Source: Candidatus Pacearchaeota archaeon
GTDB taxonomy: Archaea; Nanobdellota; Nanobdellia; Pacearchaeales; GW2011-AR1
Reading direction: 5' to 3'
DNA length: 64,000 nucleotides
Assembly (NCBI GenBank): GCA_050303855.1
Contig: JBNLCO010000010.1
Location: forward strand, 124,093 to 188,092
Each line of letters starts with the position of its first letter. Position 1 is the first letter of the stretch. Positions 21,637-37,062 of this stretch are shown here, piece after piece. The notes beneath the pieces are model-generated. The model did not search any database and was not told the origin of the DNA. It saw only the letters and a program-made list of their open reading frames with translations. The translations under genes were made by a program, and so were the position numbers.

Positions 21637-21645
21637 TAAAAAAGG

Positions 21646-21653
21646 TTTTAAAT
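21646..21653 (+). promoter_or_regulatory. TATA-like box (TTTTAAAT) about 24 nt upstream of the aglB ATG
   Basis: Same geometry as the other promoters in the window. Confidence 0.45.
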
Positions 21654-21673
21654 GATCATTATTTATCAAGAAG

Positions 21674-24415
21674 ATGAGTGATAAAGAATTTTCCCTAAAT
21701 GTTAAGGAAATTAAGAGTAGTTACAAAAAATCTAAGCATTTCTTTATGGACAAAAGAGTACAATTAATCCTTACTGCAGTTATTTTTCTTATTATACTAA
21801 TATCTGCTTCTGTAATAAGAACCTCCAATTTGGACAATCTTAAAGACATGACTACCGGAAACTATTCTGCAGCAGATCCAGATGCTCTTTATTTCCTAAG
21901 GCTGTCCCACGTTGTTCTTGACCAAGGAAATTTAAATGGTGTTGATGCTTTAAGGGCTCCAGGTTTAAACATACCTTATCTTAAGGAGATTGCCCCTTAC
22001 ACAATTGTTGGAATTTACAAAATAGCTAGTGTGTTTAGCCAGGGGGCAGATCTTAACTTCATTGCGGTAATTTCGCCAGTAATATTCTTCATTTTGGGAC
22101 TAATTGTCTTTTTCTTTCTCTGTTATTATTTAACAAAATCAAAACTTGTTGCTTTACTTTCTTCCGCATTTTTAGCATTTTCACCTGCATATTTGTTTAG
22201 AACTATGTCTGGAGTTTTAGATCACGATTCTATAGGTATGTTGGGAATATTTGCGACACTACTCGTTTTTGCTGTAGGCTCTAAGAGATATAATAAATCA
22301 AAAAATAAAACTTTGTTGTGGGGAGGAATTTTGGGCCTATCAACAGCATTCGCATTGGGAGCATGGGCAGGAGGGGTTACATTCTTGTTTATGATTATAC
22401 CTCTTGCAATAATTGTTAATTACTTGTTTAACCTTGAAGGGAAAAAGGAGGAAAAAGAGAAACTAATTTTATTCAATATAACTTGGCTTGTTTCATATGT
22501 AATCTTCACTAGAATCATTGGATTTGCTATGTCTGATATACTTAATCGGTTGACAAATCCTTCAAGTATGTTGGTATTACTCGTCTTAGGTTTTATCGTG
22601 GTGGATTATCTTGTTGAAAGAAACATGAAGAAGTTGAAAATGATTAAAGAAGAAAATAGGGTTGCTTATTCTATTGTTGCAGCAATAATTTTGGGAATCT
22701 TATTATTGACTTTGACGGGAAACAATTTCTTCTCTATGGTCTCTCAAATATATTATAAAATCTTGAATCCTTTCGGTTACGGAGGAAGATTAGGTTCCAC
22801 CGTTTCAGAAAATGCCCAACCGTATCTAACCTCTTGGATAAGCCAAATAGGAAAGGGTCTGTTCGCTTTATTCTTTGCAGGAATGGTTCTTATGGGGTTT
22901 GATTTTTCTAAGAAGATCGGCTCTAAAAAACACCGTATTTATTTTGTTGCGTTTTGGATAATCCTTATATCAGGGATATTATTTAGTAGAATCTCTCAAG
23001 GCCATATACTAAACGGAGAAAATTTCATAAGTCAAATATTTTACATTGGAGGATTTTTATTATTCCTTATTTATTTCGTAAGACTATATTTCAAAAACAG
23101 ATTTGAGATAGACAAAGACATGATCTTGGTTTTCTCTTGGATGTTATTCATGTTAGTTCTTAGTAGGGCTGCTGCAAGAACAATATTTGTTGCAACACCC
23201 TTTGCATGTTTCGCTGCAAGCTATTTGCTTGTTGGGTTGGGAAAGAGATTGAGAAAACCTAGAGAAGATACGATGAAAATGATTCTTTGGTTAATTTTCA
23301 TAATAGGAGTTATACTTGCATTCGTTTCTTTATTTGGAAACCCTTTAACTCAGTCTCCAGGTACGTATCAAATACTTAAGAATCAGGCGTCAGGCATCGG
23401 TCAAGCAGCAAATTATCAATGGCAATACGCAATGGAGTGGGCAAGAGATAATACTGGAGAAGGAGATATTTTTGTACACTGGTGGGATTATGGGTATCTC
23501 GTCCAAACCCTAGCAAATAGAAAGACCGTTAGTGATGGAGGTCATGCTGCAGGAGATTCAGGAGACCATAATGTAGGGAGATACATCTTAACAACCCCTA
23601 ACCCTATTACTGCCTTGAGCTATATGAAGACTTGGAATGTTTCCTATTTGATAATTGATCCAACAGATCTTGGAAAATATGGAGCATATTCAAAGATTGG
23701 AAGTGATAAGGATTATGATAGATACTCAGCTCCATTTGCTTTAGCAAAAGAAGATAGTCAAACTGTTGAAACTTCTTCAGGAAACAAATTTGTTTACCAA
23801 GGAAGTAGTTTTGTTGACGGAGATATCAGCTATCAAGATATATTCATCCCTGGACCAAGCTTTACAGAATCAGGACAAGCAACTGCGAACGCATACATTA
23901 TAGGATTACTTTTAGAAACCTCCGATGTGTCGGAAGGAAGAACCGAGATAAAACAACCCCAAGCAGTATTCTACTATAAAGATAAACAATATCAAATTCC
24001 CATAAGATATGTGTATTATCAAGGAAGGATTATGGATTTCCAATCAGGTATAGAATCAACATTCGTTTTGATTCCTAAAGTAAATGAAGACTCTTTAGGG
24101 TCAATAGGCATTGATTATACAGGGGCAGGAATGTATTTATCAGAAAAAGTCTCCGATAGTCTATTTGCAAACCTTTATTTGATGGATGATCCATTCAATA
24201 AATACCCTACAATCACTCTTGCAAATTCTGAAGATGATTACGTTGTTAATGCTTTGAAACAACAGGGTGCAGAGGTTGGGGACTTTGTATATTATGGTGG
24301 TTTCAGAGGTCCTTTAAAAATTTGGAAAGTAGAATACCCTCAAGGAACTGAAACACATGATGAATTCTTGCAGTTGACTTCTAATTGGGAAGGAGAATTA
24401 GATAAATTATTTTGA
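21674..24415 (+). CDS. aglB: archaeal oligosaccharyltransferase AglB (STT3 family)
   Basis: 913 aa with a multi-TM N-terminal half and the catalytic WWDYGY motif (...IFVHWWDYGYLVQ...). Confidence 0.92.
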   Translation: MSDKEFSLNVKEIKSSYKKSKHFFMDKRVQLILTAVIFLIILISASVIRTSNLDNLKDMTTGNYSAADPDALYFLRLSHVVLDQGNLNGVDALRAPGLNIPYLKEIAPYTIVGIYKIASVFSQGADLNFIAVISPVIFFILGLIVFFFLCYYLTKSKLVALLSSAFLAFSPAYLFRTMSGVLDHDSIGMLGIFATLLVFAVGSKRYNKSKNKTLLWGGILGLSTAFALGAWAGGVTFLFMIIPLAIIVNYLFNLEGKKEEKEKLILFNITWLVSYVIFTRIIGFAMSDILNRLTNPSSMLVLLVLGFIVVDYLVERNMKKLKMIKEENRVAYSIVAAIILGILLLTLTGNNFFSMVSQIYYKILNPFGYGGRLGSTVSENAQPYLTSWISQIGKGLFALFFAGMVLMGFDFSKKIGSKKHRIYFVAFWIILISGILFSRISQGHILNGENFISQIFYIGGFLLFLIYFVRLYFKNRFEIDKDMILVFSWMLFMLVLSRAAARTIFVATPFACFAASYLLVGLGKRLRKPREDTMKMILWLIFIIGVILAFVSLFGNPLTQSPGTYQILKNQASGIGQAANYQWQYAMEWARDNTGEGDIFVHWWDYGYLVQTLANRKTVSDGGHAAGDSGDHNVGRYILTTPNPITALSYMKTWNVSYLIIDPTDLGKYGAYSKIGSDKDYDRYSAPFALAKEDSQTVETSSGNKFVYQGSSFVDGDISYQDIFIPGPSFTESGQATANAYIIGLLLETSDVSEGRTEIKQPQAVFYYKDKQYQIPIRYVYYQGRIMDFQSGIESTFVLIPKVNEDSLGSIGIDYTGAGMYLSEKVSDSLFANLYLMDDPFNKYPTITLANSEDDYVVNALKQQGAEVGDFVYYGGFRGPLKIWKVEYPQGTETHDEFLQLTSNWEGELDKLF

Positions 24416-27589: not shown

Positions 27590-28612
27590 ATGTCATTTTT
27601 TGAGGTTCTTATGGATTTAACAAATGAATATTTGAATAAAAAAGTATTGATTACAGGCGGTGGCGGCTTTATTGGAAGCAACCTTGCAATAAAATTAGTA
27701 GAATTAGGCGCAGAAGTTTCGGTAATGGATTCGAAATTAAAGCCTTATGGGTTTAATTTGTTTAATCTTGATCCAGTGTTGGATAAAATAAATATAGATT
27801 ATTCGGATATAAGGGATAGAAATGCTGTTGAAAGGAATATTGCTGGACAAGATATAATCTTTAATTTGGCTGCACAGGTAGGTGAAAAAGTAGGAGAGGA
27901 AAATCCTTTTTTAGACTGGGACATAAATGTTAGAGGGCACATGGAAGTATTAAATGCATGCAAAAACAAAAATAAAGAAGCAAGAATAATATTTCCAGGT
28001 TCAAGGTTACAATATGGTAAGACAAATGGGGCAGAGATAATTTCTGAAAGCCACCCCATGAACCCCTTAACTAATTATGCCAGAAACAAAGTCGTGGGGG
28101 AAGAAATGTACCAAAAACTTAACAAAGAGGGTTTAGAAACGGTAACATTTAGAATTGCTAATCCTTTCGGTCCTCGTGCATCAATTAATAATCCTGGTTA
28201 TTGTATTGTCAATTGGTTTATTGGTAGGGCCTTGGATGGAAAAGATTTACCCATTTATGGAGAAGGGTCTCAGGCAAGAGATTATATTTTTATAGAAGAT
28301 TTAACAGATGCTATGGCAATCGCAGGAGTCCATAAAAATTCTCCAGGAAACACTTACAATTTAGGGTCAGGCCAGAAGACTTTATTCAAAGATATGGCTG
28401 AGAAAATAGTTGCACTTTCAGAAAATAATTATTCAAAAATAAATTTTGTTGAATGGCCAAAAGATGCAAAAGAAAGAGAGACTGGAAATTTTGTCGCAGA
28501 TATCTCAAAGATAGAAAGAGAATTGGGTTGGAAGCCTAAGTATAGTTTAGAAGAGGGTCTGAAAAGAACAATTGAATTTTATAGAGAAAATAAGAACAAT
28601 TATATTGGATAA
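27590..28612 (+). CDS. NAD-dependent nucleotide-sugar epimerase/dehydratase (extended SDR)
   Basis: Contains VLITGGGGFIGSNL...; a YxxxK region. The start could instead be the Met at 27611. Confidence 0.8.
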   Translation: MSFFEVLMDLTNEYLNKKVLITGGGGFIGSNLAIKLVELGAEVSVMDSKLKPYGFNLFNLDPVLDKINIDYSDIRDRNAVERNIAGQDIIFNLAAQVGEKVGEENPFLDWDINVRGHMEVLNACKNKNKEARIIFPGSRLQYGKTNGAEIISESHPMNPLTNYARNKVVGEEMYQKLNKEGLETVTFRIANPFGPRASINNPGYCIVNWFIGRALDGKDLPIYGEGSQARDYIFIEDLTDAMAIAGVHKNSPGNTYNLGSGQKTLFKDMAEKIVALSENNYSKINFVEWPKDAKERETGNFVADISKIERELGWKPKYSLEEGLKRTIEFYRENKNNYIG

Positions 28613-28694
28613 AATCACGAGAATATTTATAAAATAGAAAAAAATTCTAGATGAATGAGGAATAATTTTATTACATTTTGTAGGAGGTTATTGG

Positions 28695-29279
28695 ATGGAA
28701 GATCAAGAAAGTAAAGTTTATTTTTCGATTGGGGAGAGTATAAATGCAAAAAAATCTTTTTATAGTCGCCCAAAAGATCTTGTTGATATTTCAAACAAAA
28801 TTTATGAGTCTTTAAATAAAGGTCAAAAAATACTTGTTTTTGGGAATGGAGGTAGTGCGGCAGATGCACAACACATTGCAGGAGAGTTAGTTGGAAGGTT
28901 TAAGAAAGAACGTAAAGCTTTAGCAGCAATGGCTTTAACCACAGATACATCCGTAATAACATCATTATCTAATGATTATGATTATTCAAAGGTATTCGAG
29001 AGGCAAATTGAAGCATTTGCTAGGGAAGGAGATATTTTATGGGGAATTTCAACCTCAGGAAACTCGGAAAACGTTATTAAAGGTCTTGAAAAAGGAAGAG
29101 AAATAGGCACTTATAATTTTTCTATGACTGGTAAAGATGGAGGCATAGTAAAGAAATTAAGTGATTTTAATATAAATATTGATTCTAAAAACACTCCAAG
29201 AATTCAGGAAGCACATCAATTGGCGTACCATATTATTTGCGAATTGGTTGAAGATAAAATATATCATAATAATCTTTAA
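28695..29279 (+). CDS. gmhA: SIS-domain sedoheptulose-7-phosphate isomerase (GmhA-like)
   Basis: 194 aa, ...LVFGNGGSAADAQHIAGELVGRF...LTTDTSVITSLSNDYDYSKVFERQIEA...GDILWGISTSGNSENV...; GGAGGT lies 8 nt upstream of the ATG. Confidence 0.85.
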   Translation: MEDQESKVYFSIGESINAKKSFYSRPKDLVDISNKIYESLNKGQKILVFGNGGSAADAQHIAGELVGRFKKERKALAAMALTTDTSVITSLSNDYDYSKVFERQIEAFAREGDILWGISTSGNSENVIKGLEKGREIGTYNFSMTGKDGGIVKKLSDFNINIDSKNTPRIQEAHQLAYHIICELVEDKIYHNNL

Positions 29280-29305
29280 AAAGAAAAACAAAGTTTTAGG
29301 AAGGT

Positions 29306-30286
29306 ATGGTAAGAAATCTTATAACAGGCACTACAGGGATGGTGGGTTCTCATTTGGCAGAATTTCTTTTGGACAAAGGGGAAGAAGTTTATGGAACACG
29401 TCGTTGGCGAAGTAGGATGGATAATTGTAGAGGATTTGAGGACAAAATAAATTGGGTGAATATGGAATTAATTGACGCCCATTCTGTTAGAAATGCTATT
29501 GAAAGTGTAAGACCTGATGTGATCTATCATCTTGCTGCACAAAGCTATGTTGTTGATTCAAAAGATGAGCCTGTAGCCACAATGGAAATTAACGCCCATG
29601 GAACTGCTCATATTCTTGAAACCGTGAAGGAAATGAAGAAAAGAGATGGGTACAACCCTGTTATTCATGTTTGTAGTAGTAGTGAAGTTTATGGGCAGGT
29701 GAATCCGGACGAAGTTCCAATAAAAGAAACAAACCAATATCGACCGGCCTCTCCTTATGCGATAGGAAAGCTAGGAGCAGATATGCTTGCTAGGTGGTAT
29801 TTTGAAGAATATGATCTGAAGACGATACGTACAAGAATGTTTACTCATACAGGGCCAAGAAGAGGGGATGTTTTTGTAGTTTCAGCTTTTGCCAAACAAA
29901 TTGCAAAAATTGAGAAAGGATTACAAAAACCAAAATTAAAAGTAGGTAATCTAGAATCTGTTAGGACTTTTGCAGATGTTAGAGATACTGTGCATGCATA
30001 CTATCTCTTAACTAAGCATTGTAAGCCTGGAGAAGTCTATAACATAGGAGGAAATAGAACAATGAAGATTGGAGAGATGTTGGATATCCTTTTAAGCTAC
30101 TCTCCAATGAAAGATAAAATAGAAGTTGAAGTGGATCCGAATCTTCTAAGAAAAACTGATGTAACATATCAAATACCCGACACATCTAAGTTCAAAAAAG
30201 AAACCGGATGGGATAGCCCAATTCCTCTTGAGAAGACTTTAGAAGACACCCTAGACTATTGGAGAGGGGAATTTAAGAATGAGTAA
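29306..30286 (+). CDS. GDP-sugar 4,6-dehydratase family enzyme (Gmd/Rmd/DmhA-like)
   Basis: Contains ITGTTGMVGSHLAEFLL...CSSSEVYG...PASPYAIGKLGAD...FTHTGPRRGDVFVVSAFAKQI (compare the Gmd motif NHESPRRG..FVTRKI). Confidence 0.75.
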   Translation: MVRNLITGTTGMVGSHLAEFLLDKGEEVYGTRRWRSRMDNCRGFEDKINWVNMELIDAHSVRNAIESVRPDVIYHLAAQSYVVDSKDEPVATMEINAHGTAHILETVKEMKKRDGYNPVIHVCSSSEVYGQVNPDEVPIKETNQYRPASPYAIGKLGADMLARWYFEEYDLKTIRTRMFTHTGPRRGDVFVVSAFAKQIAKIEKGLQKPKLKVGNLESVRTFADVRDTVHAYYLLTKHCKPGEVYNIGGNRTMKIGEMLDILLSYSPMKDKIEVEVDPNLLRKTDVTYQIPDTSKFKKETGWDSPIPLEKTLEDTLDYWRGEFKNE

Positions 30287-31349
30287 AGAAGTAAAAGTAA
30301 AATTAAATCATTTTTCTGGGGAATATGAAAATGATGAAGAGTATTATGAGAAATATTGGTCAATTAAAGTTTTGTTAGATAATTTTAATGTAAAAATTGT
30401 AGATAATGTGAAAGAGGCGGATGTTATATTTGAACAGTGTACAAGAGGAAGTAATTATAATTTTTTAAATGAAAAGAATAAAAAAATAGTGCTCTTTTCT
30501 TCAGAAGATCTATATAAAAAAAGAGATATTTTTAATTTAATAGAATCCTTTCTTTATAAGGTAGGATTGGGGGATAAAAAGTGGAAAATTATAGATAAAC
30601 TAGATAGTATTATTCCTTCAAGTATCTCAAGCATTCCATTGAAATATTTTCTACCAAAACATTTGAAGTTTGTGAGAAAAATTTCAGAAGGAAAAATAAA
30701 AAATGCATACGCAATTGTTCAAAATGATATAAAAGGGGAAAACATCTTGATAATTCCCTGTTTCTTGCATGTTTTTTATTATAATTTGAAAGATTTCACA
30801 AAAAAGAAAAAACAGGAATCAAGTAAAAGGAAGAAATTTTGTGCGTTTATTGTATCTAGCAATTCCTCTAGGGAAAGGGTTAAATTTTTTAAGAAATTGT
30901 CCAAATACAAGAAAATTGATTCTTATGGAAGGGTCATGAATAATATGGGAGATAGTATTTTTAATGGCCACTGGAGTGGAACCCACCCGGAGATATATAA
31001 AGACTATAAATTCGTGATTTGTTTTGAGAATAGTTTTACAAAAGAGTATATTTGTGAGAAATTGCCTAGGACTATGCTTTCTGGAGCAATACCTATATTC
31101 AGAGGTGCTCCAAACATTGGAGAATATTTCAATAAAAAATCTTTCATTAATTATGATAATTATGGAAGTTATGAAAATATGATAAAGAAAATTATTGAGT
31201 TGGATAGTGATGATAAAAGATATGAATCATTCCTAAGAGAACCTTGGTTCAAAGATAACAAGATTCCAAAGATATTTAGAGATAAAGAGAAAGAATTAAT
31301 TCAATTTTATACCAAGATTTTTGGACCTCCAAAGAGAAAATTAAAATGA
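30279..31349 (+). CDS. GT10-like (alpha-1,3-fucosyltransferase family) glycosyltransferase
   Basis: Contains ...KKFCAFIVSSNSSRERVKFFKKLSKYKKIDSYGRVMNN...YKDYKFVICFENSFTKEYICEKLPRTMLSGAIPIF...; this matches the GT10 YKF.L.FENS....Y.TEK motif. Confidence 0.7.
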   Translation: MSKEVKVKLNHFSGEYENDEEYYEKYWSIKVLLDNFNVKIVDNVKEADVIFEQCTRGSNYNFLNEKNKKIVLFSSEDLYKKRDIFNLIESFLYKVGLGDKKWKIIDKLDSIIPSSISSIPLKYFLPKHLKFVRKISEGKIKNAYAIVQNDIKGENILIIPCFLHVFYYNLKDFTKKKKQESSKRKKFCAFIVSSNSSRERVKFFKKLSKYKKIDSYGRVMNNMGDSIFNGHWSGTHPEIYKDYKFVICFENSFTKEYICEKLPRTMLSGAIPIFRGAPNIGEYFNKKSFINYDNYGSYENMIKKIIELDSDDKRYESFLREPWFKDNKIPKIFRDKEKELIQFYTKIFGPPKRKLK

Positions 31350-32002
31350 ACAATATTTTTTATGGAATACTTTCTGTAGGGTTTGACATCGATCAAACAA
31401 TGTACGCAAAAAATAGTGAAATAGACTTAATTATTCAAGATGAAATTGCGAGGAAGATTCTTGAAATAAAACCTTCTTTCAATAATCTTGAATCAGCAAA
31501 AGAATTTTCTGAAAGAAGATATTCTGAATTAGGGAGCCGAACAAGTGTGTTAGAAGAGGTTGGCTATAAAAATGCTCAAGAAATCTTGTACGGATGCATT
31601 TCAAGTGATAAAACAATAAACCCTCTCCAGAAAGACGAAAGGCTTCAGGAAATGATTTCAAGATTGGGACATAAATATGATCTTTTTTTAATAACTAATA
31701 ATTCGGAGGATATTGCGACTAAAAAATTAGATCGATTAGGTGTTGACAAGTCTTTATTTAACCTAAAATTTTATGGAGACACATTACCTGGAATAAAAAA
31801 ATCTGATGGTTCTTTGTTCAAATATTTCCTAAGTAGGTCCAAACATTCCCCTGAAAACCACATATATGTCGGAGATAGCCTTAATGCAGACATAATCCCT
31901 TCTAAAAAGCTAGGTTTCAAAACAATTTGTGTAGGAAATCACTTTCTTGAAGCGAATTATTCTGTTAAAGAAATTTATGATATAGAAAATCTTCTTCTAT
32001 AA
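31346..32002 (+). CDS. HAD-superfamily hydrolase/phosphatase
   Basis: N-terminal nucleophile motif GFDIDQT and C-terminal ...YVGDSLNADI... Confidence 0.7.
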   Translation: MNNIFYGILSVGFDIDQTMYAKNSEIDLIIQDEIARKILEIKPSFNNLESAKEFSERRYSELGSRTSVLEEVGYKNAQEILYGCISSDKTINPLQKDERLQEMISRLGHKYDLFLITNNSEDIATKKLDRLGVDKSLFNLKFYGDTLPGIKKSDGSLFKYFLSRSKHSPENHIYVGDSLNADIIPSKKLGFKTICVGNHFLEANYSVKEIYDIENLLL

Positions 32003-32033
32003 GGCAATTTAGGGTAACCTAGGACATAAATTC

Positions 32034-32041
32034 TTTTAAAG
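32034..32041 (+). promoter_or_regulatory. TATA-like box (TTTTAAAG) about 25 nt upstream of the ATG at 32062
   Basis: Same geometry as the other promoters in the window. Confidence 0.4.
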
Positions 32042-32061: not shown

Positions 32062-33849
32062 ATGAAGTTAGCAGATTATGTTATTGATTATTTTGGAGAT
32101 AAGGGAGTGAAGGATATATTTGAGGTCTATGGTGCTGCGAATGGTGATTTGATTGATGCTTTTACGAGAACAGATAAAACAAGATATGTTGCTATAATGC
32201 ACGAACAAGCTGCAGGGTTTGCTACAGAATGTTATTCTAAGATCAGCGGTAAGCCAGGTGTTGCGATAGCCACAAGTGGCCCTGGAGGCCAGAATTTTGT
32301 GACTCCAATTGCAAATTGTTATTATGATTCTGTTCCGGCAATTTTTATAACAGGTCAGGTAAACTCCAGATTTTTAAGGCCTGATGAAAGTATAAGACAG
32401 AGAGGATTCCAAGAAACCCCTATTGCAGAAATTGTTGCTCCCATAACAAAATATTCTAAAATGATTACAGACCCAAGCACAATAAAACATGAACTTGAAA
32501 AAGCATGGTATATTTCCCAAGAAGGAAGACCAGGCCCAATTCTTCTTGATCTTCCGATAGATATTCAAAAAGCGGAAGTAGATCCGTCAAAACTATTTGG
32601 GTTTAATTCAGAAACTTATAAAACCAATTTTAATATGGAACAGGTTAATAACCAGATAGACCACTATCTTGAAGACTTGTCCCGTGCTGAAAGACCAGTT
32701 ATTCTTGTTGGAGGAGGAGTAAGACCTTCAGGAGGAATAGAAAAACTTCTGAGTTTGGGAGAGAAATTAAAAATTCCGATGTTCCCCACATGGAATTCAT
32801 TAGATATTGTTACTTCTGATTACAATTACTATGGAGGAAGGGTTGGAACTTATGGCGGAAAAGGAAGAAACTTTGGTTTGCAGAACTCCGATTTAGTTTT
32901 GGCTTTGGGAAGCAGAATTTCTGGAAGACTTTATGGAAGCCAGACAAAGGCTTTCTTAAGAGATGCAAAGAAATATGTAGTAGATATTGATAAAGCTAAC
33001 TTACAACAAATATTCCAAGAAGTTCCCTTTGACGAGAACATTTTTTGTGACGCGAAAACTTTTATAGAAAGTTTAGATAAAAAGTTGGAAGGTGTTCCTA
33101 AGAAAGATTTCTCTTCATGGACAAGTAAAGTTATGGGTTGGAGAAACAAGTATGACCCTGTAAAGAAAGAATTTTTTGAGGCTAATGAGAATGCAAACCC
33201 CTATGCTTTTTTTAGAACACTTTCTCAAGAAATGAAATCTGGAGATATCCTTGTGGGAGACTGTGGGGGAAATATTGTTGTTGCTAGTCACGCTTTTGAA
33301 ACAAAGAAAGGGCAAAGATTCATTACAAATAATGGAAACTCCCCTATGGGATTTTCATTTTCAGGAGCCATGGGGGCCTACCTTGCTGCAAATGAAGGCC
33401 AAAATGTAGTTTGCACGATTGGAGATGGAGGTTTCAATATGAATATCCAAGAACTACAAACTTTAAAGAATTATGATCTAAATTTCAAGACATTCATAAT
33501 TAACAATGGAATTTATGGTATCACTAAAGCATTCCAAGAAAAGAAGTTTGAGGGTAGGGCTGAAGCATGTGGTCCAAAAGGCTATGTTCCTCCTAATTTT
33601 ATGGCCATATGTGATGCTTACGGAATTAAAACCGAATCTATAAAAGGAAATGATATTGATAGCATGAGAGAGAAAATTGGAGATGTTTTGAATTCAAAAG
33701 GTCCTGTTGTGTGTGATGTAAGTTGTCCAGACTGGCATACTTACGAACCAACAGTTTTTGGATCAGTCCCAATCGAAGAAATGCACCCTCAGTTGCCTGA
33801 AGAAGAATTCAGAGAAAATATGATTATAAAACCTTGGAAAAAGAAATAA
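32062..33849 (+). CDS. thiamine-diphosphate-dependent enzyme, acetolactate-synthase-large-subunit-like (YerE-like candidate)
   Basis: 595 aa, ...HEQAAGFATECYSKISGKPGVAIATSGPGGQNFVTPIANCYYDSVPAIFITGQV...IGDGGFNMNIQELQTL... (ThDP-binding GDG..N motif). Confidence 0.8.
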   Translation: MKLADYVIDYFGDKGVKDIFEVYGAANGDLIDAFTRTDKTRYVAIMHEQAAGFATECYSKISGKPGVAIATSGPGGQNFVTPIANCYYDSVPAIFITGQVNSRFLRPDESIRQRGFQETPIAEIVAPITKYSKMITDPSTIKHELEKAWYISQEGRPGPILLDLPIDIQKAEVDPSKLFGFNSETYKTNFNMEQVNNQIDHYLEDLSRAERPVILVGGGVRPSGGIEKLLSLGEKLKIPMFPTWNSLDIVTSDYNYYGGRVGTYGGKGRNFGLQNSDLVLALGSRISGRLYGSQTKAFLRDAKKYVVDIDKANLQQIFQEVPFDENIFCDAKTFIESLDKKLEGVPKKDFSSWTSKVMGWRNKYDPVKKEFFEANENANPYAFFRTLSQEMKSGDILVGDCGGNIVVASHAFETKKGQRFITNNGNSPMGFSFSGAMGAYLAANEGQNVVCTIGDGGFNMNIQELQTLKNYDLNFKTFIINNGIYGITKAFQEKKFEGRAEACGPKGYVPPNFMAICDAYGIKTESIKGNDIDSMREKIGDVLNSKGPVVCDVSCPDWHTYEPTVFGSVPIEEMHPQLPEEEFRENMIIKPWKKK

Positions 33850-34416
33850 TTAAATTAATATTTTCTCTAATTCGTTTATAAATTTCTTTGAACCTTTACG
33901 AACTATTTTTTTATCTAAATAATTTTCTTCGGTATTGAGAACTAAATAGGAAACAAAATCAACCCCTGGATATTTGAAGTCAAGGTCTATATCTTCCCAG
34001 TACTTTGCTGTTTTATCCCAAACAGATACGTCTGAAGGATCTGAGATAAGTCCATCTGAAGGGGGCCTAGATTTCATTCTTTTCTTTGCTTCAGCCTCAG
34101 AACAAACACATTCTACAACAATTACATTCTTTCCTGCACCCGAAGCTACACCATAAATCTGTTGTCTTCTAAAGGTATGTCTATTTACGCTATCGATTAT
34201 TACCCCTTTCCCTTTGGTTAAATAATCCATTGCAGTCCGATCAATAAGCCTTAAAGTTTCTTCTTGTTTCTTTGGCATTTTTTTTAGTCCTAAATTACGT
34301 CTTACTTCGTTTTGAGAAATATATTCATAATTTTGGAGGCCTTTAGCCAATTTAGCAGAAGCACTAGTTTTACCTGTACCGGGGAAACCAGTCATCAAAA
34401 TGAGGTAATTTTCCAT
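33850..34416 (-). CDS. P-loop kinase-like ATP-binding protein (AAA_33-like)
   Basis: The internal ATG at 34416 (MENYLILMTGFPGTGKTSAS...) is preferred because it avoids overlap with the upstream SDR gene and places the Walker A motif at the N-terminus. Confidence 0.65.
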   Translation of the reverse strand: MENYLILMTGFPGTGKTSASAKLAKGLQNYEYISQNEVRRNLGLKKMPKKQEETLRLIDRTAMDYLTKGKGVIIDSVNRHTFRRQQIYGVASGAGKNVIVVECVCSEAEAKKRMKSRPPSDGLISDPSDVSVWDKTAKYWEDIDLDFKYPGVDFVSYLVLNTEENYLDKKIVRKGSKKFINELEKILI

Positions 34417-34438
34417 ATAACCCCAATTTTTATTTAAT

Positions 34439-35128
34439 TTAAATAGATTTATGTCTTTGTTTAGAATGTTTTCTTCCATCTAAAATGAGTTCAGATTTTT
34501 TTTCTTTGTATGCAGCAAATATTTCTTCTGAAACATATTTTGGATCCATGGAGTTTTCTCTACCAGGTCGAGTTCTTATTCTAGTTGGATAAACTCCCAT
34601 CACATGTATTCCGTTTTCAATTGCTTCCAAATTTAAGCTATCTGTGAAACCCTTAAGCCCGTATTTGCATGCTGAAGCCACGCTACGAAACTTTTTGCTT
34701 TCAAGGCCCATTATTGAGTTAATATTTATGATTGTTCCAGAGTTCTTCTTTAAAAAAAGAGGATAAATTTCCTTAGATAATTTTATTGGAGCATATAGAT
34801 TTGTTTCGAGTAATTCGTCTACTGTTTCTCTGGATATTTTATCTAAGGGTAAACCAGGACAAAAAACCCCTGCATTATTTACTAAAATTGACAAGTCTTT
34901 TTTCTCTGCAATGTTTGCCAAGTCCTTAATAGTCTTCTCGGATCTTAAATCTCCATAAACCACTTCCACCTTTGACCCGTATTTTAGTATTTCTCTCTGA
35001 GAATCATTTAAGCTAGTTTTATCCCTTCCATGGATTATTAAATTGTAACCTTCTCTTGCAAAAGTTAAAGCTAATTCCTTTCCAAGACCTTTGCTAGAAC
35101 CAGTTATCAGAACAGATTCTTTTTTCAT
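34439..35128 (-). CDS. short-chain dehydrogenase/reductase (classical SDR)
   Basis: Contains VLITGSSKGLGKELAL...NNAG... Confidence 0.8.
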   Translation of the reverse strand: MKKESVLITGSSKGLGKELALTFAREGYNLIIHGRDKTSLNDSQREILKYGSKVEVVYGDLRSEKTIKDLANIAEKKDLSILVNNAGVFCPGLPLDKISRETVDELLETNLYAPIKLSKEIYPLFLKKNSGTIININSIMGLESKKFRSVASACKYGLKGFTDSLNLEAIENGIHVMGVYPTRIRTRPGRENSMDPKYVSEEIFAAYKEKKSELILDGRKHSKQRHKSI

Positions 35129-35132: not shown

Positions 35133-36044
35133 TTAATTCGAAGAATTTTTTGAATACCAATCCAAAGTTTTTACAATACCTTCTTCAAGCGGGACTTTTT
35201 GAGACCACCCAATTTCATTTGCTTTGGTACAATCTAAGGATAGATTCATCTTAATCGTAGGTTTTGTTGTATCATGCTCAATTTTCAAATTCTTTCCGGA
35301 GGCATTAATGATCTTCTTTGTTAAGTCATTAACTGGTACTTGCTCTCCAGATCCAACATTATAAACCCCATCAAGTTCTTTTTCAAGAGCAATTTCCACA
35401 AAATCTACAAAATCAGAAACATACAAGAAATCTCTTTTTTCTTTTCCATCTCCCCAAATTACAATGCTTTCTCCGTCTGGAGTATTAGTAACTTCATTAA
35501 TTTTTGCTGCAAAAACATGAGAAGTAGCCAAATCAAAATTATCGTTAGGTCCGTAAATATTGGAGTGTCTCATCACAGTATGTTTTGTTCTTCCCAATCC
35601 AGAATAAAAATTGCACATATTTTCAAGATAAATCTTTGTACCTCCTCCACCTGAATATTTTACATTTGGAGAAGTGGGATCTGTTTCCTTATGGGGTTTA
35701 TCGCTTGAAGGGTAAACATTTGTACAGCTTGGAAATATAAACTGTTTAACATTATTTTCAAAAGCACTTCTTAACAAAAGAGAATTCATTACTGCATTAT
35801 CGGTTACATGAATATAAGGCCTCTCTATTATATCTTTAACCCCTGTACTCGTAGCAGCCATTTGAATTATAACGTCTTGACCTTTTACTACCCTTTCAAC
35901 GTCTTCTTTTCTAGTTAAATCGGCATATACATCTGATTTATTTCTAAATCCAACTCCTGTAACATCATATTTATCTTTTAGTCTTTCATATATGTTACTT
36001 CCTAAGAATCCTGTTGCTCCAGTTATTAACACTTTCTTTTTCAT
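35133..36044 (-). CDS. NAD-dependent nucleotide-sugar epimerase/reductase (extended SDR)
   Basis: Contains KVLITGATGFLGSNIYERL... Confidence 0.78.
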   Translation of the reverse strand: MKKKVLITGATGFLGSNIYERLKDKYDVTGVGFRNKSDVYADLTRKEDVERVVKGQDVIIQMAATSTGVKDIIERPYIHVTDNAVMNSLLLRSAFENNVKQFIFPSCTNVYPSSDKPHKETDPTSPNVKYSGGGGTKIYLENMCNFYSGLGRTKHTVMRHSNIYGPNDNFDLATSHVFAAKINEVTNTPDGESIVIWGDGKEKRDFLYVSDFVDFVEIALEKELDGVYNVGSGEQVPVNDLTKKIINASGKNLKIEHDTTKPTIKMNLSLDCTKANEIGWSQKVPLEEGIVKTLDWYSKNSSN

Positions 36045-36081: not shown

Positions 36082-37062
36082 TCATTCAAAGATATTATAT
36101 CTTTTATTTACAATATCTTTATTTTCTTTATACCAATCCATTGTTCTCCGAACTCCCTCTTCTAGAGATACTTTTGGATTCCATCCAAGAGACTTTGCTC
36201 TTGATACATCCATTAACCTTATTTTATCTCCTCTTGGCATAGAAGGATCCCATTTTATGGAGGGTTTTCCTTCAATGTTATTTACAATTATATTTGCTAA
36301 TTCTTTTATGCTCTTTCTTTCCCCTGATCCAAGATTTAAAGGGTAGTCTGGGCCTGGAGCCTTTTCTAAAGCCACAAGCATTCCTTCAGCAACATCCTCT
36401 GAATAAATGAAATCTCTTATTGGACTTCCATCTCCTCCTACTTTAAGGGGATTTTCTCCATCAACAGCCCTTTTTATCAATGAAGGTATTACCATTGCGT
36501 TATTCACATCAAAGTTATCAAAAGGCCCGTAGACATTTGCAGGTCTTACTATTGCTGTTTTATCCCACCCATGTTGAATTTTATATGCCCTTGCTTGTAA
36601 TTCACCAGATCTCTTTGCATAACCCCCAAACAAATCATTCTCGGAAGGAAGCGTTTTGAAAACGTCATCCTCTCTCAAAATTTCGGCAGGTTGATAAACA
36701 CCTATTGTGCTTGTAAACAAGAATCTTTCTGTCCCCTCTTTTCTAGCAGCTTCCATCAAATTTGTATTAAATTGGAGAACAGGAACAAGAAAATTAGCTG
36801 GTTTTTCCAAGGTCATTTTTGGAGAACCTTTTATTCCAAGAAGATTAAAAACATAATCCTGTCCTTCGCAAGCAATTTCACAGTTGTGATAATTGGTTAG
36901 ATCAAGTTTCAAATATTCTGAATTGGGATTTGCCCTTGAAGGATCATCCATTGAAACAACTCTTACATTTGCACCTTCCTCAAGAAGTCTATTTACTAGA
37001 GGCTTTCCAATAAGTCCGGTTCCCCCTGCGACAAGAACGTTTTTTCCCTCATAAAAACCCAT
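36082..37062 (-). CDS. NAD-dependent nucleotide-sugar epimerase/dehydratase (extended SDR)
   Basis: Contains NVLVAGGTGLIGKPLVNRLL...GGYAKRSGE...; first gene of the minus-strand sub-operon 37062 to 33850. Confidence 0.78.
   Translation of the reverse strand: MGFYEGKNVLVAGGTGLIGKPLVNRLLEEGANVRVVSMDDPSRANPNSEYLKLDLTNYHNCEIACEGQDYVFNLLGIKGSPKMTLEKPANFLVPVLQFNTNLMEAARKEGTERFLFTSTIGVYQPAEILREDDVFKTLPSENDLFGGYAKRSGELQARAYKIQHGWDKTAIVRPANVYGPFDNFDVNNAMVIPSLIKRAVDGENPLKVGGDGSPIRDFIYSEDVAEGMLVALEKAPGPDYPLNLGSGERKSIKELANIIVNNIEGKPSIKWDPSMPRGDKIRLMDVSRAKSLGWNPKVSLEEGVRRTMDWYKENKDIVNKRYNIFE

What the first reader, a model, noticed from the sequence alone, without database searches (positions are those of the whole stretch)
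28695..32002. A GDP-heptose / 6-deoxy-sugar module: GmhA, a Gmd-family 4,6-dehydratase, a GT10-like transferase and a HAD phosphatase in one operon
GmhA (sedoheptulose-7-P isomerase) is the committed step towards nucleotide-heptoses. It is followed by a Gmd/Rmd/DmhA-type GDP-sugar 4,6-dehydratase (FTHTGPRRGDVFV motif). Next comes a GT10-like transferase, a family that uses GDP-fucose-type donors. Last is a HAD phosphatase with DIDQT, a possible GmhB analog.

Together with the HddC-CBS-HddA fusion at 39395, every step to GDP-D-glycero-D-manno-heptose and on to 6-deoxy-heptose is plausibly encoded. As far as I recall, heptose or deoxyheptose glycans are known mainly from bacterial LPS, capsules and S-layers.
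Basis: partly seen in the sequence, partly recalled or inferred. Interest (0 to 1): 0.55.

Follow-up and report, generated by a model that had tools for sequence, protein, structure and literature searches.

The report
Archaeal GDP-heptose deoxysugar gene cluster
A small, probably DPANN-type archaeon carries, next to its protein N-glycosylation enzyme, a gene cluster that very likely builds a seven-carbon sugar (GDP-heptose), removes oxygen atoms from it and attaches it to surface glycans; this chemistry has so far been characterised only in bacteria.

Summary
All four ORFs are at the stated coordinates on the + strand, tightly packed, and every domain call holds.

- **GmhA** matches solved sedoheptulose-7-P isomerases (171 bits) better than DiaA (115 bits).
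- **The dehydratase** is not a canonical Gmd. [quoted passage not shown] It clusters with homologues that sit beside gmhA, gmhB and hddA.
- **The transferase** is a true GT10 by motif and predicted fold.
- **The HAD** is a capped HAD-IA protein, not a GmhB relative. No gmhB lies in the 64 kb. Sister genomes carry either this HAD or a canonical gmhB, never both.

The module belongs to an AglB-linked island that also encodes:
- an HddC-HddA fusion;
- a PMP-type 3-dehydratase (His replaces the PLP lysine);
- two fucose-synthase-like reductases;
- an acetolactate-synthase-like ThDP enzyme with a ketoreductase.

The likely product is therefore a 6-deoxy- or 3,6-dideoxy-heptose, possibly C-branched. 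ThDP enzymes accompany this dehydratase family in 34 of 41 well-covered loci across phyla. Verdict: real, interpretation largely right, a new variant of a known pathway.

The parts
28695..29279 (+). GmhA-type sedoheptulose-7-phosphate isomerase (194 aa)
   Evidence: TIGR00441 scores 201.3 bits (cut-off 209.45); DiaA model 123 bits. Best PDB match is 1TK9, C. jejuni GmhA, at 171 bits and 51% identity over 157 aa; DiaA scores 115 bits. H60, E64, Q171 and H179 align with identical residues in 1TK9. The same position is occupied in L091/L092, at 70% identity.
29306..30286 (+). [quoted passage not shown]
   Evidence: PDB 7US5 scores 300 bits at 48% identity over 319 aa. Rmd 2PK3 scores 230 bits and Gmds 145 bits or less. 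The TIGR01472 gmd model gives 159 bits against a 415 cut-off. In an NJ tree it sits in the clade holding 7US5 and all loci that carry gmhA. It shares the motifs CSSSEVYG, Y151xxxK155 and THxGPRRxDVF with 7US5.
30279..31349 (+). GT10-family glycosyltransferase (356 aa), DPANN-specific subfamily
   Evidence: PF00852 scores 88.9 bits. The FucT motif YKFVICFENSFTKEYICEKL is at residues 243-262. The AF2 model has pLDDT 92; its top 18 PDB fold matches are all GT10 fucosyltransferases, led by H. pylori FucT at E 4e-19 and TM 0.61. There are dozens of full-length relatives, and those that carry a source name are named Nanoarchaeota or 'archaeon' MAGs.
31346..32002 (+). HAD-IA (capped) phosphatase, 218 aa; candidate non-orthologous heptose-1,7-bisphosphate 7-phosphatase, unproven
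   Evidence: HAD_2 and Hydrolase Pfam hits. Best NCBIfam hits are pyrimidine-5'-nucleotidase and CTE7-type HAD-IA at about 51 bits, with no GmhB model matched. Best PDB match is PH1655 at 30 bits. It is conserved next to GT10 in L001 and L085 at 57% identity and absent from loci that carry a gmhB-like gene.
39395..41440 (+). HddC (guanylyltransferase) - weak CBS-like linker - HddA (heptose-7-P kinase) fusion, 681 aa
   Evidence: NF049965 HddC 197 bits and NF049969 HddA 246 bits. The kinase half matches 4N3O (C. jejuni HddA) at 214 bits and WcbL at 193 bits, against galactokinase at 60 bits. CBS scores 22.3 bits. The fusion is conserved in L001, L085, L087, L090 and L091/92.
37174..38304 (+). 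DegT-family PMP-dependent sugar 3-dehydratase (ColD/E1 type), 376 aa
   Evidence: H185 in FSFYVAHIVSCGDGG aligns with His220 of CDP-4-keto-6-deoxyglucose 3-dehydrase. 3BCX has H at this position and the 3BB8 variant has K. The aminotransferase 7B0M has Lys there. The same His motif is found in the DPANN relatives where the motif search returned it (L085, L087, L090, L091) and in 8 bacterial or archaeal loci next to dehydratase homologues.
36082..37062 (-). Extended SDR most similar to GDP-L-fucose synthase ('Fcl2'); candidate C4 reductase
   Evidence: NF047922 scores 147 bits, below its cut-off. Best PDB match is a GDP-L-fucose synthase at 127 bits. Homologues scoring at least 200 bits lie within 10 kb of the dehydratase homologue in 26 of 41 well-covered loci.
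35133..36044 (-). Second fucose-synthase-like extended SDR ('Fcl1')
   Evidence: NF047922 scores 149 bits; best PDB match 106 bits. It has an atypical glycine-rich Y..K region and lacks the Cys109 equivalent.
32062..33849 (+). Acetolactate-synthase-like ThDP enzyme (595 aa); candidate YerE-like sugar C-branching enzyme
   Evidence: Has the three TPP_enzyme domains. TIGR00118 scores 365 bits against a 538 cut-off. It follows the HAD on the same strand and is 78% identical in L085. Relatives carry other ThDP enzymes at the equivalent place.
34439..35128 (-). Classical short-chain dehydrogenase (229 aa); candidate side-chain ketoreductase (YerF-like role)
   Evidence: adh_short scores 131 bits. 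It is conserved with the ThDP enzyme in L085 (63%) and in L084 (55%).
33850..34479 (-). AAA_33 / KTI12-like P-loop kinase (209 aa), always paired with the HAD-IA in relatives
   Evidence: AAA_33 scores 64 bits. It is present in L001 and L085 at 52-55% identity and absent from loci that lack the HAD-IA.
27590..28612 (+). Extended SDR (340 aa) of unassigned specificity, always upstream of the dehydratase
   Evidence: Epimerase 151 bits. PDB matches of about 110 bits are spread over epimerases, decarboxylases and dehydratases. It is 61-71% identical in L001, L085 and L091.
20650..24415 (+). AglH-like GlcNAc-1-P transferase family gene (20650-21636) and AglB/STT3 oligosaccharyltransferase (21674-24415) that head the island
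   Evidence: Glycos_transf_4 scores 99.5 bits. STT3 scores 45.7 bits, with a WWDYG motif and TIGR04154 at 84 bits. This head of the island is conserved in all DPANN relatives.
38311..39168 (-). PanB (ketopantoate hydroxymethyltransferase) inserted between the 3-dehydratase and the HddC-HddA fusion; role in the cluster unknown
   Evidence: PF02548 scores 307 bits and TIGR00222 scores 253 bits, above its cut-off. It is absent at this position in L085, and L091 has gmhB there.

Best explanation
The four genes are the core of a nucleotide-heptose pathway inside an AglB-headed surface/N-glycan island of a low-GC archaeon. The organism is probably DPANN ('Nanoarchaeota' sensu lato).

Proposed route:
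1. GmhA isomerises sedoheptulose-7-P to D-glycero-D-manno-heptose-7-P.
2. The kinase half of the HddC-HddA fusion makes the alpha-1,7-bisphosphate.
3. A 7-phosphatase removes the C7 phosphate. It is not identified; the HAD-IA is a candidate.
4. [quoted passage not shown] 6. The keto intermediate is tailored by enzymes encoded in the same island. A ColD/E1-type PMP enzyme removes the 3-OH, and fucose-synthase-like SDRs reduce C4.
7. The resulting 6-deoxy- or 3,6-dideoxy-heptose is added to a lipid-linked glycan, most plausibly by the GT10 enzyme, and transferred to protein by AglB.

Shown by sequence comparison: the family identity of GmhA, HddA, HddC, the dehydratase, GT10 and the 3-dehydratase signature, and the conserved synteny.

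Inferred: substrates, order of steps, the phosphatase, the donor of GT10 and the final stereochemistry.
For: - **Dehydratase.** 300 bits to the solved C. jejuni GDP-heptose 4,6-dehydratase, against 230 bits for Rmd and 145 or less for Gmd. The clade and motifs are shared with 7US5.
- **GmhA.** 171 bits to C. jejuni GmhA; the residues at four positions remembered as catalytic/metal ligands are identical to 1TK9.
- **HddA half.** 214 and 193 bits to solved heptose-7-P kinases.
- **Sister lineage L091/L092.** One + strand run holds SDR-GmhA-dehydratase-GT10-ThDP-3-dehydratase-SDRs-GmhB-HddC/HddA. This is the full canonical set.
- **Wider family.** In 80 loci from other phyla, 30 of 41 well-covered loci carry an HddA-like, GmhA or GmhB-like gene within 10 kb of the dehydratase homologue. 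In 15 loci the kinase hit lies within 200 bp.
- **3-dehydratase.** His replaces Lys. The equivalent C. jejuni heptose 3-dehydratase pathway has been reconstituted (PMC10440746).
- **GT10.** The fold and donor-domain motif are intact.
- **AglB.** It is adjacent in every relative examined.
Against: - The HAD is not of that family.
- GmhA, HddA and HddC all score below NCBIfam equivalog cut-offs.
- Closely related genomes L001 and L085 have the cluster without gmhA within 10 kb.
- From memory (Butty 2009, McCallum 2011; not checked here): characterised DmhA/WcbK enzymes also accept GDP-mannose. A hexose route therefore cannot be excluded by sequence.
- GT10 orthologues occur in islands without an orthologue of this dehydratase within 10 kb.
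- The HddA-like kinases in most bacterial loci are divergent: 107-149 bits to HddA against 78-96 to fucokinase.
Confidence: 0.7

Rival explanations
1. This is a hexose pathway. The dehydratase works as a GDP-mannose 4,6-dehydratase and the HddC domain as a mannose-1-P guanylyltransferase. The cluster then makes GDP-L-fucose, GDP-colitose or GDP-D-rhamnose-type 6-deoxyhexoses, which the GT10 transfers as an ordinary fucosyltransferase-like enzyme. GmhA and HddA would serve something else or be secondary.
For: - The whole family is annotated 'GDP-mannose 4,6-dehydratase'.
- The HddC domain also matches a mannose-1-P guanylyltransferase model at 172 bits.
- All characterised GT10 enzymes use GDP-fucose (established knowledge; best fold matches).
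- GT10 orthologues exist in islands without heptose genes.
- From memory, DmhA/WcbK accept GDP-mannose in vitro.
Against: - gmhA lies 26 bp upstream of the dehydratase, and the same adjacency recurs in a second lineage.
- The nucleotidyltransferase is fused to a kinase that matches heptose-7-P kinases 3-4 times better than any other GHMP kinase.
- The canonical Gmd model is failed.
- The enzyme clusters with the solved heptose dehydratase.
- No phosphomannomutase or isomerase was seen in the island.
Confidence: 0.12
2. This is a higher-carbon (octose-type) pathway as in lincomycin biosynthesis, where LmbR, LmbN, LmbP, LmbK and LmbO play transaldolase, GmhA-like, HddA-like, GmhB-like and HddC-like roles. 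The GmhA, HddA and HddC homologues would process an octulose-8-phosphate or another ketose phosphate rather than sedoheptulose-7-P.
For: A related DPANN island (L088) has a transaldolase, SIS isomerase, GHMP kinase, GmhB-like HAD and NTP transferase in a row. This is the gene set of the GDP-octose route. The lincomycin pathway itself is recalled from memory, not read here.
Against: - The window has no transaldolase hit and no transketolase-like hit.
- Its GmhA is 51% identical to a bona fide C. jejuni GmhA. The L088 isomerase is only 28% identical to the window's GmhA.
Confidence: 0.05
3. The HAD-IA, together with the AAA_33 kinase, is not part of nucleotide-heptose synthesis. The pair could serve another function, for example phosphorylating and dephosphorylating a glycan, lipid carrier or nucleotide-sugar intermediate, or a housekeeping nucleotidase role. 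The real GmhB would be encoded elsewhere in the genome.
For: - The HAD's best matches are generic HAD-IA nucleotidase or phosphatase families.
- It always travels with the P-loop kinase and a ThDP enzyme plus reductase block.
- Loci L087 and L090 have the HddC-HddA fusion with neither HAD-IA nor gmhB nearby.
- In C. jejuni, gmhB lies outside the capsule cluster (PMC10680097).
- HAD-IA homologues are absent from all 80 loci of other phyla.
Against: - HAD-IA and gmhB-like genes are mutually exclusive in the seven DPANN lineages that carry HddA and HddC. Three have HAD-IA only, two have gmhB only, two have neither, and none has both.
- The HAD start overlaps the stop of GT10 by 4 bp, so it is co-transcribed with the sugar genes.
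Confidence: 0.55

Closest known systems
Campylobacter jejuni capsular GDP-6-deoxy- and 3,6-dideoxy-heptose pathways (GmhA, HddA, GmhB, HddC, 4,6-dehydratase DdahA/WcbK, PLP C3-dehydratase, C4-reductases; PMC10680097, PMC10440746); Yersinia pseudotuberculosis DmhA/DmhB
   Same: The enzyme families and the predicted order of reactions are the same. The dehydratase is 48% identical to the solved C. jejuni enzyme. GmhA is 51% identical. The HddA half scores 214 bits to C. jejuni HddA. As in C. jejuni, no gmhB lies in the cluster.
   Different: The host is an archaeon and the cluster is headed by AglB rather than a capsule export system. HddC and HddA are fused through a CBS-like linker. There is no cupin C3/C5 epimerase. 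The reductases resemble true GDP-fucose synthases more than the C. jejuni reductases. The 3-dehydratase scores about equally against E1, ColD and DegT-type aminotransferases (149-164 bits). A GT10 and a ThDP enzyme are part of the cluster.
GDP-L-colitose pathway (ManC, Gmd, ColD, ColC)
   Same: The logic is the same: 4,6-dehydratase, then a PMP-dependent 3-dehydratase with His in place of the Schiff-base Lys, then a fucose-synthase-like SDR.
   Different: The substrate is probably a heptose rather than mannose. The SDRs lack the Cys109 equivalent used for epimerisation in GDP-fucose synthase.
Yersiniose and other acyl-branched sugars (YerE/YerF; AviB1/AviB2 and Pau11/Pau12 with the aldo-keto reductase Pau7; PMC9306805, PMC4753412)
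   Same: The gene combination is the same: 4,6-dehydratase, 3-dehydratase, ThDP enzyme and ketoreductase. Relatives show the same alternation between a single acetolactate-synthase-like enzyme and two-component E1-like enzymes, paired with an SDR or an AKR.
   Different: Known acceptors are CDP- or dTDP-hexose derivatives, whereas here the acceptor would be a GDP-heptose derivative. I could not compare the window enzyme directly with YerE. No product is known.
GT10 alpha-1,3/4-fucosyltransferases (H. pylori FucT, human FUT9)
   Same: It has a GT-B fold, and its top structural matches are all GT10. The donor-domain motif FxxxFENSxxxxYxxEK is conserved.
   Different: Identity is only 16-18%. The N-terminal acceptor domain has no Pfam match. 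It forms a DPANN-restricted subfamily fixed in AglB islands. The donor is probably a deoxyheptose or another 6-deoxy sugar rather than fucose (inferred).
HldE (bifunctional heptose kinase/adenylyltransferase of the ADP-heptose pathway)
   Same: It fuses the kinase and the nucleotidyltransferase, which catalyse non-consecutive steps separated by the GmhB reaction (established knowledge).
   Different: The domains belong to different families: GHMP kinase plus an NTP_transferase-family (PF00483) nucleotidyltransferase here, against ribokinase-like plus cytidylyltransferase-like in HldE. The domain order is reversed, and the predicted product is a GDP-alpha-sugar rather than an ADP-beta-sugar.
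Thermoplasma acidophilum N-glycan heptose (PMC11407970)
   Same: It is the one archaeal N-glycan cited in that review as containing a heptose, so heptose on archaeal glycoproteins has precedent.
   Different: No deoxyheptose has been reported there, the phylum is different, and the biosynthetic genes were not compared here.

Membership tests
GmhA (sedoheptulose-7-phosphate isomerase) | SIS-fold protein scoring at or above the curated TIGR00441 equivalog cut-off | tested here: inconclusive
   It scores 201.3 bits against a cut-off of 209.45. GmhA models are the best four hits, and DiaA scores 123 bits.
GmhA (sedoheptulose-7-phosphate isomerase) | Closer to characterised GmhA than to the paralogue DiaA; catalytic/metal residues (His, Glu, Gln, His) present | tested here: met
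   Solved GmhA structures score 115-171 bits against 115 for DiaA. H60, E64, Q171 and H179 align with identical residues of 1TK9. The roles of these residues are recalled from the literature, not re-derived.
GmhA (sedoheptulose-7-phosphate isomerase) | Genomic association with HddA/HddC/GmhB | tested here: met
   The HddC-HddA fusion lies 10 kb downstream. L091/L092 carry GmhA, GmhB and HddC-HddA in one cluster.
[quoted passage not shown] | Extended SDR with Ser/Thr-Glu and YxxxK catalytic residues and the PRR nucleotide-sugar motif of dehydratases (not PGQ of Rmd reductases) | tested here: met
   S125/S126-E127, Y151 and K155 are present, as is FTHTGPRRGDVF. Rmd has FNHIGPGQ at that position.
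[quoted passage not shown] | Closer to a characterised heptose dehydratase than to Gmd or Rmd | tested here: met
   Scores are 300 bits (7US5), 230 bits (Rmd) and 145 or less (Gmd). The NJ tree places it with 7US5 and with all gmhA-linked homologues (distance tree, no bootstrap).
[quoted passage not shown] | Kinetic preference for GDP-heptose over GDP-mannose | not testable with these tools
   This needs enzyme assays.
Canonical GDP-mannose 4,6-dehydratase (Gmd, TIGR01472) | Score at or above the equivalog cut-off; FNHESPRRG and [ST]SE[ML]FG motifs | tested here: not met
   It scores 159 bits against a cut-off of 415. The motifs differ.
GT10 fucosyltransferase family | Pfam GT10 catalytic domain above the gathering score, with the conserved FucT donor motif | tested here: met
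   It scores 88.9 bits against a cut-off of 23.9. The motif is at residues 243-262.
GT10 fucosyltransferase family | Two-domain GT-B fold superposable on solved GT10 enzymes | tested here: met
   The AF2 model has pLDDT 92.2 and pTM 0.89. Its top 18 Foldseek hits are all GT10, with a best E of 4e-19 and TM 0.61.
GT10 fucosyltransferase family | Uses GDP-beta-L-fucose as donor | not testable with these tools
   The donor is inferred from the neighbouring genes only.
GmhB (HAD-IIIA heptose-1,7-bisphosphate 7-phosphatase) | Capless HAD-IIIA / histidinol-phosphatase-like domain matching GmhB models | tested here: not met
   None of the three GmhB-specific models that match the L091 and L088 proteins matches the window HAD. 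Its best hits are HAD-IA families, and the generic HAD-IIIA superfamily model TIGR01662 scores only 26 bits against a cut-off of 44.6. By contrast the L091 and L088 proteins score 122-134 bits on NF006506. A tblastn probe for GmhB finds nothing in the window.
HAD superfamily phosphatase | DxDxT nucleophile motif plus motifs II-IV | tested here: met
   D14-I-D16-Q-T, LITNN at 115, KKSD at 151 and GDSLNAD at 176 are present. HAD_2 scores 42.5 bits.
HddA (D-glycero-D-manno-heptose-7-P kinase) and HddC (heptose-1-P guanylyltransferase) | Best match to characterised enzymes; NCBIfam equivalog cut-offs | tested here: inconclusive
   These are the best models and the best solved structures. The scores of 246 and 197 bits are below the cut-offs of 600 and 300.
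ColD/E1-type PMP-dependent 3-dehydratase | DegT fold with His replacing the PLP-binding Lys | tested here: met
   H185 aligns with His220 of E1. The engineered H220K variant and a true aminotransferase show Lys at this position.
YerE-type sugar C-branching ThDP enzyme | Acetolactate-synthase-like ThDP enzyme encoded with a 4,6-dehydratase, a 3-dehydratase and a ketoreductase | tested here: met
   Searches support this, as context only.
YerE-type sugar C-branching ThDP enzyme | Sequence clustering with YerE/ErwE rather than with acetohydroxyacid synthases; carboligation onto a 4-keto sugar | not tested
   No YerE sequence was available to the tools. The enzyme fails the ALS equivalog cut-off (365 against 538), which is compatible with this reading but not specific to it.

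The most novel reading that the evidence does not exclude
The dehydratase family to which this gene belongs is databased as 'GDP-mannose 4,6-dehydratase'. Across many uncultivated bacterial and archaeal phyla it may instead be the entry point to a so far undescribed class of GDP-linked, C-branched or chain-extended deoxyheptoses.

In this reading, the 4-keto product (3-deoxygenated here by the ColD-like enzyme) is the acceptor of a ThDP-dependent carboligation, followed by side-chain ketoreduction, as in the yersiniose/eurekanate pathways. In this archaeon the result would be something like a 3,6-dideoxy-4-C-(1-hydroxyethyl)heptose placed on AglB-dependent N-glycans by a GT10 enzyme.

The HAD-IA would then be a non-orthologous replacement of GmhB.
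Probability: 0.3. Interest if true: 0.8.

Novelty: new variant of a known kind. Interest (0 to 1): 0.5.

Why it matters
Deoxyheptoses are known as bacterial capsule and O-antigen sugars. The archaeal N-glycosylation review I read mentions a heptose in only one archaeal N-glycan, and I know of no glycan structure for DPANN archaea.

This cluster gives a concrete, testable prediction: these tiny, host-dependent archaea decorate their surface proteins with a deoxygenated heptose made by a compact, partly fused pathway.

It also shows that thousands of database proteins labelled 'GDP-mannose 4,6-dehydratase' are closer to the solved heptose dehydratase than to canonical Gmd, so the label deserves re-examination.

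The family's near-constant linkage to ThDP enzymes points to an unexplored reservoir of branched higher-carbon sugars.

Tried and rejected
- **Source contig.** An exact-sequence look-up of the window's dehydratase found nothing. A cluster look-up gave no names or accessions. The organism is therefore inferred only from the named relatives of GT10 and GmhA.
- **Papers.** The paper describing 7US5 (PMC9623766) is not held, so residues contacting C7 of the heptose could not be checked.
- **DiaA reading of the SIS protein.** Rejected on scores.
- **Rmd-type reductase reading of the dehydratase.** Rejected because the PRR motif and the clade fit the dehydratases.
- **gmhA as a recent insertion.** Rejected. 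The closest lineage (L091/L092) has it at the same place with identity similar to its neighbours. No homologue of 70% identity or more is listed on the contigs of L001 or L085.
- **GT10 strictly coupled to the dehydratase.** Rejected, because L084, L086, L088 and L089 have GT10 without an orthologue of this dehydratase within 10 kb.
- **L-configured product via 3,5-epimerisation.** I therefore do not claim an L-sugar.
- **Promoter and terminator scans.** Not used, because the tool models bacterial sigma-70 signals.
- **Literature on the ThDP link.** A search for a described link between ThDP enzymes and GDP-heptose clusters found nothing relevant. This does not prove that none exists.

Full report
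**1. The observation**

They are separated by a 26-bp gap, an 8-bp overlap and a 4-bp overlap. They sit in a same-strand run from 26311 to 33849 (GT4, SDR, the four genes, then a ThDP enzyme).

Pfam gives SIS_2 (91 bits), GDP_Man_Dehyd (256 bits), the Glyco_transf_10 C-terminal domain (89 bits against a cut-off of 24) and HAD_2 (42 bits). The quoted motifs FTHTGPRRGDVF and DIDQT are present.

The 681-aa fusion at 39395 has an NTP_transferase N-terminus and a GHMP-kinase C-terminus. Its best NCBIfam models are HddC and HddA. The 'CBS' linker is only a sub-threshold match, 22.3 bits against 24.

An A/T-rich TATA-like stretch and a GGAGG lie upstream of gmhA. In a 33% GC genome this means little.

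**2. What each gene is**

*GmhA.*
- The four best NCBIfam models are GmhA equivalogs. TIGR00441 scores 201.3 bits, 8 bits under its cut-off. DiaA scores 123 bits.
- Solved GmhA structures score 115-171 bits, and DiaA 115.
- Identity to C. jejuni GmhA is 51% over 157 residues.
- H60, E64, Q171 and H179 align with identical residues in 1TK9. That these are the catalytic and zinc residues is my recollection of the GmhA literature.

*Dehydratase.*
- It fails the canonical Gmd equivalog badly, 159 bits against 415.
[quoted passage not shown] The reductase Rmd (2PK3) follows at 230 bits. True Gmds reach only 113-145 bits.
- I built a distance tree from the window protein, 26 homologues taken from fetched loci, and PDB sequences reconstructed from the printed alignments. 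The window enzyme lies in a clade containing 7US5 and every homologue whose locus also carries gmhA. Rmd is next and Gmd is outside (no bootstrap).
- The motifs CSSSEVYG and THxGPRRxDVF are shared with 7US5. Gmd has [ST]SE[ML]FG and FNHESPRRG. Rmd has FNHIGPGQ.

*GT10.*
- The C-terminal donor domain and the classical FucT motif (YKFVICFENSFTKEYICEKL, residues 243-262) are intact.
- An AlphaFold model built from 39 homologues has pLDDT 92 and pTM 0.89.
- Its 18 best PDB fold matches are all GT10 fucosyltransferases over both domains (H. pylori FucT E 4e-19, TM 0.61; FUT9; plant FUT11/13).
- There are dozens of full-length relatives. The hits that carry a source name are labelled 'Nanoarchaeota archaeon' or 'archaeon'.

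*HAD.*
- It has the DxDxT, T, K and DD motifs of a HAD phosphatase.
- It is a capped HAD-IA. Its best models are pyrimidine-5'-nucleotidase and CTE7-type hydrolases at about 51 bits, and its best structure is PH1655 at 30 bits.
- It matches none of the GmhB-specific models.
- By contrast, the HAD genes of L091 and L088 score 122-134 bits on a GmhB model.
The same probe finds GmhB-like genes in 11 of 80 other loci.

**3. Surroundings**

The module lies in a glycan island. On one side is a ribosomal-protein operon, and on the other are SecDF, tRNAs and 5S rRNA. The island contains, in order:
- an AglH-like transferase (20650) and AglB/STT3 (21674-24415);
- an FkbM methyltransferase and two GT4 genes;
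- an extended SDR (27590);
- the four genes of the finding;
- an acetolactate-synthase-like ThDP enzyme (32062);
- an AAA_33 kinase, a short-chain SDR and two GDP-fucose-synthase-like SDRs, all on the - strand;
- a DegT-family protein (37174);
- PanB (- strand);
- the HddC-HddA fusion;
- further transferases, methyltransferases, an AsnB-like amidotransferase, WecG and a Wzx-like flippase.

The kinase half of the fusion matches solved heptose-7-P kinases at 188-214 bits (C. jejuni 4N3O at 214, B. pseudomallei WcbL at 193). Galactokinase scores 60 and fucokinase 54.

The DegT-family protein has His185 where aminotransferases have the Schiff-base Lys. It aligns with His220 of the CDP-4-keto-6-deoxyglucose 3-dehydrase E1. 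The engineered H220K variant and an aminotransferase show Lys at this position. This is the signature of the PMP-dependent 3-dehydratases E1 and ColD. A heptose-specific enzyme of this type, acting right after the 4,6-dehydratase, has been reconstituted from C. jejuni HS:5 and HS:11 (PMC10440746).

**4. Related loci**

*DPANN relatives.*
- The closest relatives of the dehydratase (85-90% identity) come from metagenomes with the same island.
- L085 has the window's organisation minus gmhA and PanB.
- L001-L003 also lack gmhA and PanB. They replace the acetolactate-synthase-like enzyme and SDR by a small split transketolase/E1-like pair plus an aldo-keto reductase.
- L091/L092 are the closest by AglB (70%) and the dehydratase (87%). 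One strand carries SDR-GmhA-dehydratase-GT10-E1-like ThDP enzyme-His-type 3-dehydratase-three SDRs-GmhB-HddC/HddA, which is the complete canonical GDP-heptose set.
- L087 and L090 have the fusion, a dehydratase (44-52% identity), the 3-dehydratase and an E1-like enzyme.
- L088 has unfused transaldolase-SIS-GHMP kinase-GmhB-NTP transferase.
- L084, L086 and L089 have the GT10 without an orthologue of this dehydratase within 10 kb.

Two consequences follow.
- The GT10 is a fixture of the AglB island and is usually, but not always, next to a deoxysugar cassette. Its donor is inferred.
- HAD-IA (always with the AAA_33 kinase) and gmhB are mutually exclusive among the seven lineages that have HddA and HddC. 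Three have HAD-IA only, two have gmhB only, two have neither. This is compatible with non-orthologous displacement, but the sample is far too small to prove it.

*Other phyla.*
- A scan of one genome per species found more than 590 relatives with the family motifs. I fetched 80 of them at 55-67% identity. They come mostly from uncultivated bacterial phyla such as Planctomycetota, Omnitrophota, Verrucomicrobia, Chloroflexota and CPR groups, and from several archaeal phyla.
- Among the 41 loci with at least 18 kb of sequence, genes within 10 kb of the dehydratase homologue were: HddA-like kinase 27, HddC-like 19, GmhA 7, GmhB-like 9, Fcl2-like SDR 26. Thirty loci have at least one heptose marker.
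- Across all 80 loci, the kinase hit lies within 200 bp of the dehydratase homologue in 15 of the 41 that have one.
- One caveat applies. The bacterial kinases are divergent, at 107-149 bits on the HddA model against 78-96 on fucokinase. Only the loci with GmhA or GmhB are unambiguous.

*An unexpected result.*
- 34 of the 41 loci also carry a ThDP-dependent enzyme: E1 alpha/beta-like, split transketolase-like or acetolactate-synthase-like.
- In 19 loci the E1-alpha-like gene follows the dehydratase on the same strand within 100 bp.
- A Chloroflexota example (L048) reads GmhA-GmhB-RmlC-like epimerase-dehydratase-E1a-E1b-ALS-like-split transketolase-GHMP kinase-SDR-SDR.

**5. Mechanism**

Most likely (about 0.7), the pathway runs as follows:
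1. Sedoheptulose-7-P is converted by GmhA, then by the HddA domain.
2. A 7-phosphatase acts next. It is unidentified.
3. [quoted passage not shown] The dehydratase makes GDP-6-deoxy-4-keto-D-lyxo-heptose.
5. The keto sugar is tailored by 3-deoxygenation (about 0.6) and C4 reduction by the fucose-synthase-like SDRs.
6. The product is transferred to a lipid-linked glycan, by GT10 with a probability of about 0.4.
7. AglB transfers the glycan to protein.

Stereochemistry is open. There is no cupin epimerase. An alignment to E. coli Fcl (from memory) suggests both SDRs lack the Cys109 acid/base used for epimerisation.

The combination of 4,6-dehydratase, 3-dehydratase, ThDP enzyme and ketoreductase is the gene set for yersiniose-type C4 acetyl/hydroxyethyl branching. 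Relatives alternate between an ALS-like enzyme plus SDR and an E1-like pair plus AKR. This mirrors YerE/YerF against AviB1/B2 or Pau11/12 with the AKR Pau7 (PMC9306805, PMC4753412). I therefore hold a branched deoxyheptose as the most novel reading that is not excluded (about 0.3).

**6. Comparison and novelty**

The enzymes are homologues of the C. jejuni and Y. pseudotuberculosis GDP-(deoxy)heptose pathways and of the colitose pathway. Heptose has one archaeal N-glycan precedent, in Thermoplasma acidophilum (PMC11407970).

The new elements are:
- the archaeal, AglB-linked setting in a probable DPANN genome;
- the HddC-CBS-like-HddA fusion;
- the absence of gmhB together with a co-transcribed HAD-IA;
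- a dedicated GT10 subfamily;
- the ThDP link.

I rate this a new variant of a known kind, with interest 0.5. It is a solid and testable prediction rather than a surprise. There is upside if the ThDP association reflects a new class of sugars.

Noticed in passing
window 37174-38304 (+): The 'DegT aminotransferase' has His185 in place of the PLP-binding Lys (FSFYVAHIVSCGDGG). This is the hallmark of PMP-dependent sugar 3-dehydratases (ColD/E1). The same motif recurs in DPANN relatives (seen in L085, L087, L090 and L091) and in 8 loci of other phyla next to dehydratase homologues.
   Followed up: yes
window 32062-33849 (+) and loci L004-L083: ThDP-dependent enzymes accompany this dehydratase family in 34 of 41 well-covered loci across phyla. 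They are E1 alpha/beta-like, split transketolase-like or acetolactate-synthase-like. In 19 loci an E1-alpha-like gene lies directly downstream on the same strand. I found no paper describing this.
   Followed up: partly
window 38311-39168 (-): A full-length PanB (ketopantoate hydroxymethyltransferase, above the NCBIfam cut-off) sits inside the sugar cluster. L085 has nothing at that position and L091 has gmhB. PanB makes an alpha-keto acid, so it could supply a donor for the ThDP enzyme. This is pure speculation.
   Followed up: no
window 33850-34479 (-) with 31346-32002 (+): An AAA_33/KTI12-like P-loop kinase always co-occurs with the HAD-IA (window, L001-3, L085) and is absent wherever the HAD-IA is absent. 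This kinase/phosphatase pair has an unknown substrate.
   Followed up: partly
L088:15642-20130 (-), GCA_020430505.1 'Nanoarchaeota archaeon': A row of transaldolase, SIS isomerase, GHMP kinase, GmhB-like HAD, an unknown gene and NTP transferase sits in an AglB/GT10 island. This is the gene set of the lincomycin GDP-octose route (LmbR/N/P/K/O, from memory). It could make a heptose with its own sedoheptulose-7-P supply, or an octose.
   Followed up: no
window 41409-42314 (+): A 301-aa ORF has no Pfam or NCBIfam hit but carries EDD and WGWATWRRAW motifs. It is conserved at 58-72% identity in six of the related DPANN islands, directly after GT10 in L086, L088 and L090 and after the HddC-HddA fusion in the window, L085 and L087. 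It is possibly an unclassified GT-A glycosyltransferase.
   Followed up: no
window 35133-36044 (-) and 36082-37062 (-): Both fucose-synthase-like SDRs have an unusual glycine-rich segment where the YxxxK motif is expected (YSGGGGTK and FGGYAK). Both lack the Cys109 equivalent of GDP-fucose synthase.
   Followed up: partly
window 51444-51531 (-): An 88-nt tRNA is detected by Rfam at 57.5 bits, but ARAGORN gives no anticodon assignment ('tc' at position 34). It may be an intron-containing or atypical archaeal tRNA. A 5S rRNA lies at 53264-53379.
   Followed up: no
L001:19782-20975, L084:11134-14005, L090:7193-8680: B12-binding radical-SAM enzymes are frequent in the sister islands next to the sugar genes. 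This suggests C-methylation or other radical tailoring of the same glycans. None was seen in the window's cluster.
   Followed up: no
one search hit list (P0002-P0120): At least 8000 database proteins (the scoring cap) match this dehydratase at E <= 1e-30. The best 120 are 58-90% identical, and where a source names them the label is nearly always 'GDP-mannose 4,6-dehydratase'. The fetched family members group with the solved heptose dehydratase rather than with canonical Gmd, so these annotations may need revisiting.
   Followed up: partly
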